A DNA stretch of 64,000 nucleotides, taken from the NCBI GenBank assembly GCA_016184005.1, contig JACPDL010000001.1:829-64828 (forward strand), in the 5' to 3' direction. Made by a program: the position numbers and the translations under genes. The notes under the pieces are model-generated. The model searched no databases. It saw nothing but the letters and a program-made list of their open reading frames with translations, and was not told where the DNA came from. How positions within the stretch are numbered: position 1 is the stretch's first letter; each line of letters starts with the position of its first letter. Below are positions 6,657-53,066 of the stretch, one piece after another. The stretch is from Candidatus Aenigmatarchaeota archaeon (GTDB taxonomy: Archaea > Aenigmatarchaeota > Aenigmatarchaeia > GW2011-AR5).

Positions 6657-6751
6657 CTTGAATAGGAGAGGAGGTTGATACGTGCAGAAAGCTTCGCTTT
6701 CTGACGTGCCAGAAAAGCTATGCTTCTCTGAGCAAGGATGTTCTCGACTTA
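6657..6751 (-). repeat. Family-2 composite hairpin element, long copy
   Basis: The minus strand reads AAGTCGAGAACATCCTT + 2 hairpins (CAGAGAAGC..GCTTtTCTG, CAGAAAGCgaaGCTTTCTG) + GTATCAACCTCCTCTCCTATTCAAG. It is near-identical to 38855..38943. Confidence 0.85.
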
Positions 6752-15617: not shown

Positions 15618-15663
15618 AGGGAAAAGAGATTAGAAAGAGAAAAACCGTAGGTTTGTTCTCTTC
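15618..15663 (-). terminator. Family-4 hairpin with a T-rich tract, directly after the NUDIX stop codon
   Basis: The minus strand reads AAGAGAACAAACCTACGGTTTTTCTCTTTCTAATCTCTTTTCCCT. The same element is at 18909 and 20676. Confidence 0.65.
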
Positions 15664-18908: not shown

Positions 18909-18957
18909 AGAAGAGAACAAACCTACGGTTTTTCTCTTTCTAATCTCTTTTCCCTTT
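18909..18957 (+). terminator. Family-4 hairpin with a T-rich tract
   Basis: AGAAGAGAACAAACCTACGGTTTTTCTCTTTCTAATCTCTTTTCCCTTTT begins 1 nt after the stop codon. Confidence 0.65.
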
Positions 18958-20675: not shown

Positions 20676-20722
20676 GAGGAGAACAAACCTACGGTTTTTC
20701 TCCTTCTAACCTCTTTTCCCTC
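20676..20722 (+). terminator. Family-4 hairpin with a T-rich tract
   Basis: GAGGAGAACAAACCTACGGTTTTTCTCCTTCTAACCTCTTTTCCCTC begins immediately after the stop codon. Confidence 0.65.
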
Positions 20723-51379: not shown

Positions 51380-51547
51380 GGGTCTGTAGTCTAGCTTGGT
51401 AAGAGCCCCTCTCAAAGGGAGAGGGTAGAGGGAGATACGTAGTTTCTCCTCTCCCGAAAGGACCCAGCCTTGGGGTGGCTGAAACCTGAGTTCAAAATCA
51501 GGACGGAGGTTGCGATACCTCCTCTGATGAATATCTCAGCGGACCCA
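51380..51547 (+). tRNA. tRNA-Pro(GGG) with two introns: one in the D-arm 3' strand (about 51405..51462, 58 nt) and one in the T-loop at 59/60 (about 51497..51533, 37 nt)
   Basis: Spliced by hand, it gives a 73-nt cloverleaf: GGGTCTG TA GTCT AGCTTGGTA AGAC C CAGCC TTGGGGT GGCTG AAAC CTGAG TTCAAAT CTCAG CGGACCC A. The D and T arms are identical to those of the second tRNA-Pro. Junctions are ambiguous by 1-2 nt. CCA is not encoded. Confidence 0.75.
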
Positions 51548-51565
51548 TTTATCAGGCTTGTAGCT

Positions 51566-51587
51566 GTGCTAGGCTGATGGTTTGGTT
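51566..51587 (+). repeat. Direct repeat DR1 (GTGCTAGGCTGATGGTTTGGTT)
   Basis: It matches 52867..52888 at 21 of 22 positions. Together the two copies bracket the Fic gene. Confidence 0.8.
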
Positions 51588-51658
51588 TCCCCGAAAACAA
51601 CCCTAGAACTACGTTTTTTGCAGAAATAAAGGCACCCGAACATAAACCACAGCAATGA

Positions 51659-52866: not shown

Positions 52867-52888
52867 GTGCTGGGCTGATGGTTTGGTT
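52867..52888 (+). repeat. Direct repeat DR2 (GTGCTGGGCTGATGGTTTGGTT)
   Basis: See DR1 at 51566..51587. Confidence 0.8.
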
Positions 52889-52941: not shown

Positions 52942-53066
52942 GGGCTTGTAGTCTAGCTTGGTAGGACTCCGGCTTCGGGAACAAATCCCTTTCTTGTAAG
53001 AAAGGTCTTTGTGAACCCCAAAGAACGAATTAGTCGGGAACCTGAGTTCAAATCTCAGCGAGCCCA
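52942..53066 (+). tRNA. tRNA-Pro(CGG) with a canonical 52-nt intron at 37/38 (about 52980..53031)
   Basis: Spliced: GGGCTTG TA GTCT AGCTTGGTA GGAC T CCGGC TTCGGGA GTCGG GAAC CTGAG TTCAAAT CTCAG CGAGCCC A. All stems pair, with one G-U in the acceptor stem. Position 37 is G, as expected for Pro. Confidence 0.85.

What the first reader, a model, noticed from the sequence alone, without database searches (positions are those of the whole stretch)
51380..51547. tRNA-Pro(GGG) needs two non-canonical introns (D-arm and T-loop) to fold
As encoded, the 168-nt locus has intact acceptor halves but no contiguous cloverleaf. Removing about 58 nt from the 3' strand of the D stem and about 37 nt from the T loop (59/60) yields a perfect 73-nt tRNA. 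Its D and T arms are identical to those of the neighbouring tRNA-Pro(CGG). Multiple introns at non-canonical positions are known mainly from Thermoproteales and a few ultrasmall archaea whose splicing endonucleases have relaxed specificity. Both introns are built from the same kind of short hairpins as the intergenic repeats. Both also contain the GATAC core seen in families 1 and 2: intron 1 has AGGGAGATACGTAG, and intron 2 has GGAGGTTGCGATACCTCC (compare GGAGGTTGATAC at 6674).
Basis: partly seen in the sequence, partly recalled or inferred. Interest (0 to 1): 0.62.

Follow-up and report, generated by a model that had tools for sequence, protein, structure and literature searches.

The report
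Two-intron proline tRNA gene, DPANN archaeon
This is a real proline tRNA gene of a tiny Aenigmarchaeota (DPANN) archaeon, broken by two introns in unusual places (D loop and T loop); it is a clean new example of a known archaeal oddity, in a genome where every tRNA gene I could detect carries at least one intron.

Summary
As encoded, window 51380-51547 (+) is not recognised as a tRNA by ARAGORN or Rfam. Removing 58 nt (51402-51459) and 37 nt (51497-51533) gives a 73-nt tRNA-Pro(GGG) with a perfect cloverleaf.

- **T-loop intron (59/60):** it sits in a strict bulge-helix-bulge (BHB) splicing motif.
- **D-arm intron (21/22, D-loop/D-stem border):** its motif is relaxed.
- **Sister species:** the exons and intron 2 are identical, but intron 1 is a different 92-nt sequence at the same site. 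Its two changes in the paired intron positions both keep pairing.
- **Family relatives:** six genomes have the same tRNA without introns, one has only a 59/60 intron, and one has only a 22/23 intron.
- **Spliced product:** aligned with these orthologues, all stem positions pair, with four compensatory pairs.
- **Splicing machinery:** the genome encodes RtcB ligase and a single alpha-type EndA carrying the Lys-rich "L3" loop already linked to disrupted tRNA genes in DPANN.

Two side claims fail. GATAC is not an enriched or conserved core, and intron 2 matches no repeat family. Intron 1 does carry a 39-nt hairpin repeat.

Verdict: a new member of a known kind, of moderate-to-low interest.

The parts
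51380..51401 (+). Exon 1: acceptor 5' strand, U8-A9, D-stem 5' strand and D loop up to A21 (GGGTCTGTAGTCTAGCTTGGTA)
   Evidence: ARAGORN on the spliced sequence; my BHB-aware finder; identical in sister species G001.
51402..51459 (+). Intron 1, 58 nt, at tRNA position 21/22. Its BHB is relaxed. The central 4-bp helix pairs 51396-51399 (TTGG) with 51454-51457 (CCGA). The 5' bulge is TA|A and the inner helix is GAG:CTC. The outer helix is only 1 bp, or else D-stem pairs 10-12:23-25 closing a 4x3 loop.
   Evidence: BHB check; constrained fold costs 6.5 kcal/mol over the MFE. G001 has a different 92-nt intron at the same site with CCAA and CTT, both still pairing.
51414..51452 (+). 39-nt hairpin repeat inside intron 1 (AAAGGGAGAGGGTAGAGGGAGATACGTAGTTTCTCCTCT)
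   Evidence: Seven further copies in the genome at 87-100% identity. One lies in the tRNA-Thr(CGT) intron, one inside a dubious ARAGORN tRNA-Gly(TCC) call at C4:200610-200906, and two end directly on ATG start codons.
51460..51496 (+). Exon 2: D-stem 3' strand (GGAC), position 26, anticodon arm (anticodon GGG at 51472-51474), 4-nt variable loop, T-stem 5' strand and T loop up to A59
   Evidence: Identical in G001 and in metagenome contig L054.
51497..51533 (+). Intron 2, 37 nt, at 59/60. Its motif is a strict hBHBh'. The outer helix is the 5-bp T stem. The central helix pairs 51491-51494 (TTCA) with 51528-51531 (TGAA). The bulges are AA|A and TA|T. The inner helix is 5 bp, followed by a GGAGGT/ACCTCC hairpin.
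   Evidence: BHB check: H 4/4, h 5, h' 5. Identical in G001. No significant copies elsewhere in the genome.
51534..51547 (+). Exon 3: U60, T-stem 3' strand, acceptor 3' strand and discriminator A73. CCA is not encoded; TTT follows at 51548-51550.
   Evidence: The T4:A69 pair spanning exons 1 and 3 is a compensatory change relative to C4:G69 in relatives.
52942..53066 (+). Neighbouring tRNA-Pro(CGG) with one canonical 52-nt intron (52980-53031). Its D and T arms are identical to those of the GGG gene.
   Evidence: Rfam tRNA 45.1 bits; ARAGORN; my finder.

Best explanation
The locus is the genome's only detected gene for tRNA-Pro(GGG), which reads CCU and CCC. Two archaeal protein-spliced (BHB) introns interrupt it.

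**Proposed pathway (inferred from the known archaeal route, not observed here).**
- The roughly 168-nt precursor is cut by the cell's single splicing endonuclease, an alpha-type EndA with the DPANN 'L3' Lys-rich loop.
- Cuts fall at 51401|51402 and 51459|51460 for intron 1, and at 51496|51497 and 51533|51534 for intron 2.
- RtcB joins the three exons. The ends are trimmed and CCA is added.

**The two sites differ in quality.** Intron 2 presents a textbook 3-4-3 bulge-helix-bulge built on the T stem. Intron 1 presents a relaxed motif: a good 5' bulge, central helix and inner helix, but a weak outer helix. It therefore presumably depends on the relaxed specificity attributed to loop-bearing endonucleases.

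**Folding consequence (inferred).** In the precursor, the two central helices tie up D-loop U17-U17a-G18-G19 and T-loop U54-U55-C56-A57. These are the nucleotides that form the tRNA elbow, so the L-shape could form only after both introns are gone.

**Origin (inferred).** The two-intron state is derived within this genus. Intron 1 is a hot spot where short mobile hairpin repeats have been exchanged.
For: **Shown here**
- The spliced sequence is a perfect tRNA-Pro(GGG); the unspliced sequence is not recognised.
- Both junctions have BHB motifs exactly where the cloverleaf requires them. Intron 2 is strict (H4, h5, h'5). Intron 1 is relaxed (H4, h1, h'3).
- Sister species G001 and a metagenome contig have 73/73 identical exon bases and an identical intron 2. 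They carry an unrelated 92-nt intron-1 interior. Its two substitutions in the seven paired intron positions (CCGA to CCAA, CTC to CTT) both keep pairing.
- Within the family, six genomes have an intron-less orthologue (Rfam 53-56 bits for the four scored). One genome has only a 59/60 intron with a different sequence. One has only a 22/23 intron.
- On the alignment of the spliced product with these orthologues, 100% of cells pair. Four pairs show compensatory changes; slid controls show 0-1.
- All relatives have G22, which supports the 21/22 junction.
- The machinery is present: EndA with PF02778+PF01974 and RtcB at 578 bits.
- The EndA insert GVQLKKGPKSAKEH aligns gap-free with the N. equitans alpha-subunit insert and, with a single one-residue gap, with the ARMAN-2 insert. 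This is the L3 loop that PMC5829648 associates with alpha4-type EndAs of DPANN and heavy tRNA gene disruption.
- Need for the tRNA: CCU+CCC are 47% of Pro codons, 19 per 1000 codons. No second GGG or AGG gene was found in this genome.
- Genome context: 18 high-confidence tRNA gene models all have introns, 9 of them two. Position 59/60 is occupied in 9.

**From the literature**
- 59/60 and 22/23 are known non-canonical sites (PMC4090602).
- ARMAN-2 pre-tRNA-Pro(GGG) has two introns, at 53/54 and 59/60 (PMC3239211).
Against:
- Intron 1's BHB is weak. Loose BHB criteria give about 35 chance candidates per 170 nt. The BHB-forming fold is 6.5 kcal/mol above the MFE.
- Only one EndA gene of the alpha type was found. 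Classically this type is held to need strict BHBs.
- The EndA's triad lysine position is Ala, so its activity and specificity are assumed, not shown.
- The two intron-1 alleles share their ends, so their BHBs are not independent observations.
Confidence: 0.88

Rival explanations
1. A dead tRNA gene: a former tRNA-Pro(GGG) inactivated by insertion of short repeats and never spliced. CCU and CCC would then be read by another tRNA.
For: Intron 1 contains a mobile-looking 39-nt repeat. The intron-1 BHB is weak. No expression data are available.
Against: - All 73 exon bases are identical in the sister species, while the intron-1 interior is replaced and the flanks diverge.
- Both inserts sit in BHB motifs at junctions that restore a perfect cloverleaf.
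- The lineage-specific T4:A69 pair is compensatory across exons 1 and 3.
- No other GGG or AGG tRNA-Pro gene was found, and CCU+CCC are 47% of Pro codons.
- Every other detected tRNA gene in this genome is also interrupted.
Confidence: 0.04
2. A functional two-intron gene, but intron 1 is excised at a different register (22/23 to 25/26), giving an AGAC D-stem strand, or by a route that does not use the BHB proposed here.
For: Sliding the junction by 1-3 nt (locus 23-25 / 81-83) also gives an ARAGORN-valid tRNA with an A22-U13 pair. The outer helix of the proposed BHB is only 1 bp.
Against: - Those registers have no 4-bp central helix (hand check on the sequence; they are absent from the candidate list).
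- All seven distinct orthologues have G22.
- The 22|23...80|81 register is the only one with H 4/4 plus h' 3, in both G000 and G001.
Confidence: 0.06
3. A different tRNA: with only the T-loop insert removed, the locus folds as a tRNA-Leu(CAA)-like molecule with one 53-nt anticodon-loop intron.
For: ARAGORN reports such a model when intron 2 alone is removed.
Against: That model has a G:G mismatch in the D stem, a U.U in the anticodon stem and an irregular variable region. It lacks the class-II long arm of tRNA-Leu. It has no orthologue, whereas the Pro(GGG) model matches intron-less genes in six relatives.
Confidence: 0.01

Closest known systems
ARMAN-2 (Ca. Micrarchaeum acidiphilum) pre-tRNA-Pro(GGG) with two introns at 53/54 and 59/60, and pre-tRNA-Cys with a 59/60 intron cut in vitro by epsilon2 EndA (Fujishima et al. 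2011, PMC3239211)
   Same: Same isoacceptor, an ultrasmall DPANN archaeon, two non-canonical BHB introns with one at 59/60, and an EndA carrying the same Lys-containing C-terminal-domain insert.
   Different: Here the second intron is in the D arm (21/22) with a relaxed BHB, not in the T loop. The enzyme is a single 202-aa alpha-type protein rather than the three-unit epsilon2. Nothing has been tested biochemically.
Multi-intron tRNA genes and transposed intron families of Thermoproteales (Sugahara 2007/2008 and Fujishima 2010, as summarised in PMC4090602)
   Same: Up to three BHB introns per gene at sites such as 20/21, 22/23 and 59/60. Related intron sequences occur in unrelated tRNAs. In this genome at least five 59/60 introns form one family, and the intron-1 core recurs in the tRNA-Thr(CGT) intron.
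   Different: Those organisms have (alpha-beta)2 EndA with the Crenarchaea-specific loop. Here there is one alpha-type gene with the L3 loop. The repeat in intron 1 also occurs outside tRNAs, at gene starts.
alpha4-type EndAs with the L3 loop in DPANN and Hadesarchaea, associated with increased tRNA gene disruption (Kaneta et al. 2018, PMC5829648)
   Same: Single-gene EndA with the L3 insert, and a heavily disrupted tRNA gene set that standard predictors cannot complete.
   Different: Aenigmarchaeota were not among the genomes analysed there. The loss of the canonical triad lysine seen here is not mentioned in that paper.

Membership tests
Archaeal BHB (EndA/RtcB-spliced) tRNA introns at non-canonical positions | The exons alone rebuild a canonical cloverleaf with the conserved nucleotides | tested here: met
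   73-nt tRNA-Pro(GGG) with all stems fully paired and U8, A14, G18G19, U33, G37 and TTCAAAT present. It matches intron-less orthologues with 4 compensatory pairs.
Archaeal BHB (EndA/RtcB-spliced) tRNA introns at non-canonical positions | A 3-4-3 bulge-helix-bulge motif at the exon-intron boundaries of intron 2 | tested here: met
   H 4/4 (TTCA:TGAA), 3-nt bulges, outer helix 5 bp (the T stem), inner helix 5 bp.
Archaeal BHB (EndA/RtcB-spliced) tRNA introns at non-canonical positions | A bulge-helix-bulge motif, strict or of a recognised relaxed type (HBh'/hBH), at intron 1 | tested here: inconclusive
   H 4/4 including one G.U, a 3-nt 5' bulge and a 3-bp inner helix. The outer helix is only 1 bp, or a D stem offset by a 4x3 loop. 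This fits the relaxed class. The motif is kept in the G001 allele. On its own it is close to what loose criteria find by chance.
Archaeal BHB (EndA/RtcB-spliced) tRNA introns at non-canonical positions | The genome encodes the splicing endonuclease and the RtcB ligase | tested here: met
   EndA at C3:113931-114539, PF01974 98 bits plus PF02778 57 bits. RtcB at C4:255836-257143, 578 bits.
Archaeal BHB (EndA/RtcB-spliced) tRNA introns at non-canonical positions | An endonuclease of a type shown to cut relaxed motifs: (alpha-beta)2 or epsilon2, or one bearing a specificity loop | tested here: inconclusive
   Only one alpha-type gene was found, with no paralogue. Its best structural relative is the M. 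jannaschii alpha4 enzyme. It carries the L3 insert shared with N. equitans and ARMAN-2. Its specificity has not been measured, and the triad Lys position is Ala.
Archaeal BHB (EndA/RtcB-spliced) tRNA introns at non-canonical positions | The mature spliced RNA is observed | not testable with these tools
Transposed/mobile tRNA intron families (Fujishima 2010 type) | The same intron sequence occurs in tRNA genes of different identity | tested here: inconclusive
   The intron-1 core (39 nt) recurs in the tRNA-Thr(CGT) intron and at five or six non-tRNA sites. Intron 2 has no relatives and is not a member of the 59/60 two-hairpin family shared by Val, Gly, Asn, Gly and Ser tRNAs.
Split or permuted tRNA genes | Exons on separate loci or in permuted order | tested here: not met
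   The three exons are colinear on one strand within 168 nt.

The most novel reading that the evidence does not exclude
The locus may be one visible symptom of a lineage-wide re-engineering of tRNA splicing.

- In this DPANN phylum the alpha-type EndA has lost the canonical catalytic-triad lysine (A, S or T at that position in every correctly read homologue sampled).
- It carries an almost invariant K(K/R)GPK loop next to the catalytic His. A loop lysine may have taken over catalysis and at the same time relaxed substrate choice.
- That would have allowed every tRNA gene to fill with introns at D-loop, T-loop and other sites.
- Introns such as the two here mask G18G19 and U54-A57. Order-dependent BHBs exist, as in the genome's tRNA-Pro(UGG). 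Together these would make splicing an obligatory, ordered folding checkpoint.
Probability: 0.2. Interest if true: 0.65.

Novelty: new member of a known kind. Interest (0 to 1): 0.35.

Why it matters
**Annotation.** Standard tRNA finders miss this essential gene and most others in the genome: 14-17 of the 40-odd tRNA genes an archaeal genome normally needs are found. Aenigmarchaeota genomes will therefore look tRNA-deficient unless intron-aware models are used.

**Biology.** The locus adds a clean, comparatively supported case of a D-loop intron plus a T-loop intron in a lineage not covered by the published surveys I found. Intron-less, one-intron and two-intron alleles of the same tRNA occur within one family, which is useful material for studying intron gain and turnover.

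**Enzymology.** It also points to an EndA that cannot work exactly like the characterised ones, because its triad lysine is missing.

The finding itself extends a known phenomenon and does not reveal a new one.

Tried and rejected
- **GATAC core.** Rejected. The motif is not enriched (1555 observed against about 1800-1890 in shuffles). Half of the repeat copies read GAAAC at that place. The GGAGGTTG(N)GATAC pattern has only the self-hit, with 0.6 expected by chance. The site at 6674 (GGAGGTTGATAC) is 2 nt shorter and lies in an unrelated context.
- **Intron 2 as a repeat.** blastn-short and regex searches found only 15-17-nt near matches at E>=0.29. It is also not a member of the genome's 59/60 two-hairpin intron family.
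- **Contiguous or one-intron alternative folds.** Rfam gives nothing at E<=10. ARAGORN's Leu(CAA) model is poor.
- **A second EndA subunit.** phmmer of EndA against all six-frame ORFs of at least 50 aa found nothing better than E=0.36. The Pfam search of the genome found one gene.
- **A third allele.**
  - The third genome of the genus (G002) has no syntenic region and no GGG exon.
- **First search pattern.** My exon-2 pattern with up to 3 mismatches was too strict for the wider family. I replaced it with a 5'-exon pattern plus spliced alignment and my own finder.
- **Limits of my finder.** It evaluates BHBs on the primary sequence only and allows at most 3 introns, with none in the acceptor or T stems. 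It therefore recovers only 18 confident tRNA genes, and the full tRNA set remains unresolved.

Full report
**1. Observation**

Window 51380-51547 (+) reads GGGTCTGTAGTCTAGCTTGGTA / 58 nt / GGACCCAGCCTTGGGGTGGCTGAAACCTGAGTTCAAA / 37 nt / TCTCAGCGGACCCA.
- ARAGORN finds no tRNA anywhere in the window.
- Rfam finds only the neighbouring tRNA-Pro(CGG) at 52942-53066. Even with permissive thresholds it reports nothing at the locus.
- Deleting locus positions 23-80 and 118-154 yields a 73-nt sequence that ARAGORN calls tRNA-Pro(GGG), with every stem fully paired.
- Deleting only intron 1 gives nothing. Deleting only intron 2 gives a poor Leu(CAA)-like model with mismatches in the D and anticodon stems.
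- The D and T arms are identical to those of tRNA-Pro(CGG).

**2. Splice motifs**

I used the standard archaeal geometry:
- The last two exon bases plus the first intron base form a 3-nt bulge.
- The four bases before that bulge pair with intron bases -5 to -2.
- The last two intron bases plus the first base of the next exon form the second bulge.

*Intron 2* (window 51497-51533, position 59/60) is a strict hBHBh'. The T stem is the 5-bp outer helix. TTCA:TGAA is the central helix. The bulges are AA|A and TA|T, and the inner helix has 5 bp.

*Intron 1* (51402-51459) fits only in the register A21|G22.
- The central helix is TTGG:CCGA, with one G.U pair.
- The 5' bulge is TA|A and the inner helix is GAG:CTC.
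- The outer helix is a single C16:G pair.
- When the motif is forced, ViennaRNA closes the 3' splice site with D-stem pairs 10-12:23-25 across a 4x3 loop, at a cost of 6.5 kcal/mol over the MFE.

Intron 1 is therefore a relaxed motif. Loose BHB criteria produce about 35 chance candidates in a gene of this size. The weight of the argument thus lies in the coincidence with the cloverleaf junction and in the comparative data.

**3. Comparative evidence**

The genome is 0.92 Mb in 5 contigs and 94% complete. Close homologues of its EndA are named Aenigmarchaeota/Aenigmatarchaeota by their sources.

*Sister species.*
- G001, and a metagenome contig with the same allele, have the same upstream gene, identical exons (73/73) and an identical intron 2.
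- They carry a 92-nt intron 1 whose interior is unrelated. Only the first 4 nt and the last roughly 10 nt are shared.
- In the seven intron positions that pair in the BHB, the two alleles differ twice (CCGA/CCAA and CTC/CTT). Both changes keep pairing.

*The wider family*.
- tRNA-Pro(GGG) is intron-less in six genomes: G028, G036, G025, G034, G027 and G011.
- It has only a 48-nt 59/60 intron of a different sequence in G010.
- It has only a 21-nt 22/23 intron in G020.
- The four intron-less genes I scored reach 53-56 bits with Rfam's tRNA model.

*Covariation.*
- I aligned the in-silico spliced G000 sequence with the six other distinct orthologues. All 147 stem cells form standard pairs.
- Four pairs show changes on both sides. 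One is the lineage-specific U4:A69, which joins exon 1 to exon 3.
- Slid controls give 0-1 such pairs.
- All orthologues have G22, which agrees with the 21/22 junction.

The two-intron state is therefore derived in this genus, and the exons are under tRNA-type constraint.

**4. Is the tRNA needed, and is the machinery there?**

- CCU and CCC make up 47% of proline codons, 19 per 1000 codons.
- No other GGG or AGG proline tRNA gene was found in this genome.
- The other two isoacceptors are also interrupted. CGG has one canonical intron. UGG, at C4:476309-476497, has three introns.
- RtcB is present.
- There is one EndA gene of 202 aa with PF02778 plus PF01974. No paralogue is detectable. Its best structural relative is the M. 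jannaschii alpha4 enzyme.
- Its six-residue Lys-rich insert between the catalytic Tyr and His (GVQLKKGPKSAKEH) aligns without gaps to the N. equitans alpha-subunit insert and, with a single one-residue gap, to the ARMAN-2 insert.
- Fujishima et al. (PMC3239211) first noted this Lys-containing C-terminal insert in N. equitans and ARMAN-1/-2.
- Kaneta et al. (PMC5829648) named it L3. [quoted passage not shown]

It is met through the loop, not through an (alpha-beta)2 or epsilon2 architecture.

**5. The repeat claims**

- *Intron 1.*
  - Its core (window 51414-51452, 39 nt) has seven more copies in the genome at 87-100% identity.
  - One copy lies antisense in the tRNA-Thr(CGT) intron.
  - One lies inside a dubious ARAGORN tRNA-Gly(TCC) call.
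  - Two end directly on ATG start codons.
- *The G001 allele of intron 1.* It carries a different short repeat, ACAAACCTACGGTTTTTCT, which itself occurs at least six times in G000. Intron 1 therefore looks like a landing pad for small hairpin repeats.
- *Intron 2.* It has no significant relatives. It is not a member of the two-hairpin family that fills the 59/60 site of at least five other tRNAs in this genome.
- *GATAC.* It is not enriched in the genome and is not conserved among copies of the repeat.

**6. Genome context**

I wrote a finder that demands an acceptor stem, U8, a T arm and so on, and lets the parse jump only across BHB candidates.
- In strict mode it returns 20 models in the genome and none in the reversed genome.
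- In relaxed mode the best reversed-genome control scores 20.75.
- Eighteen loci score at least 22. Nine have one intron, nine have two, and none is intron-less. Position 59/60 is occupied in nine.
- ARAGORN with introns allowed finds 17 genes, all with introns.
- None of the 14 Rfam hits has the length of an uninterrupted tRNA gene.

The locus is therefore typical of its genome rather than exceptional.

**7. Comparison with what is known**

- Non-canonical sites including 20/21, 22/23 and 59/60, genes with up to three introns, and intron families shared between tRNAs are established for Thermoproteales and Nanoarchaeota (PMC4090602).
- ARMAN-2 has a two-intron pre-tRNA-Pro(GGG) (53/54 and 59/60) and a 59/60 intron that is cut in vitro (PMC3239211).
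- I found no paper dealing with tRNA introns of Aenigmarchaeota.

This is a new member of a known kind.

**8. What is shown and what is inferred**

*Shown:*
- the exon/intron anatomy and the motifs;
- conservation and covariation across relatives;
- the intron presence/absence pattern in the family;
- the presence of EndA and RtcB;
- the membership of the intron-1 core in a repeat family.

*Inferred:*
- that the RNA is actually spliced at these junctions;
- that this EndA cuts the relaxed site;
- any order of intron removal;
- that masking of the elbow nucleotides has functional meaning.

Noticed in passing
G000:C3:113931-114539 (L003 1198-1806); relatives L055-L084: The only EndA lacks the canonical catalytic-triad lysine. 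M. jannaschii K156 and M. kandleri K334 (K334A is inactive, PMC5829648) align with Ala179 in AHNIRARML. This motif is invariant in 13 Aenigmarchaeota EndAs. In a phylum-wide sample of 30 loci, the 18 read in the correct orientation all have A, S or T at that position, together with a conserved K(K/R)GPK insert next to the catalytic His. A loop lysine or R178/R180 may have taken over. I found no mention of this in PMC5829648.
   Followed up: partly
whole genome G000 (outside and inside the window): No uninterrupted tRNA gene was detected by ARAGORN, Rfam or my BHB-aware finder. All 18 high-confidence models have one or two introns. Position 59/60 is occupied in nine. At least five of those introns (Val GAC, Gly GCC, Asn GTT, Gly TCC, Ser GCT) are one two-hairpin family: AAGCCCTTT...GCGCTTGCGGAAA...GCAAGCAAAGGC..CGAAAN.
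   Followed up: partly
G000:C4:476309-476497 (+), outside the window: tRNA-Pro(UGG) has three introns: 14 nt at 33/34, 48 nt at 37/38 and 53 nt at 59/60. The canonical 37/38 BHB (H4, h5, h'10) exists only after the 14-nt mini-intron is removed; on the primary transcript only 2 of 4 central pairs form. This implies an obligatory order of splicing. ARAGORN accepts the spliced 74-mer.
   Followed up: partly
window 51557-51590 and 52867-52888; also G000 C3:10298(-), C4:141276, C4:474967, C4:92464(-): The 22-nt 'direct repeats' flanking the Fic gene between the two tRNA-Pro genes belong to a six-copy family, GGCTYGTAGCTGTGCTWGGYTGATGGYTTGGYT...GTGGTTGATTGGYAGTCTA. Its start resembles a tRNA 5' end. 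These are therefore not cassette-specific flanks.
   Followed up: partly
window 15638-15656(-), 18917-18935, 20683-20719; G000 C4:166268, C4:425201(-), C5:117197: The 19-nt ACAAACCTACGGTTTTTCT, found in the sister species' version of intron 1, is itself a dispersed repeat in this genome.
   Followed up: no
G000:C4:448032-448144 (-): ARAGORN's 'tRNA-Pro(cgg)' with an odd 18-nt intron is better modelled as tRNA-Arg(TCG) with two short introns at 30/31 and 41/42 in the anticodon stem.
   Followed up: no
L017 1804-1877, L028 324-444, L043 (-) 37-131, L051 (-) 185-282: Several genera of the same family carry tRNA-Pro(AGG) genes with A34, as reported for ARMAN-4 and ARMAN-5 in PMC3239211. G010 has both AGG and GGG genes.
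   Followed up: no
relatives G065, G068, G084, G094, G113, G114, G119, G120, G131, G132 and the ~400-aa hits: EndA architecture varies widely within this phylum. There are single alpha-type genes, adjacent pairs of alpha-like genes, fused two-unit ORFs of 370-410 aa, and distant ORFs of about 400 aa that match in two or three stretches (epsilon-like?).
   Followed up: no
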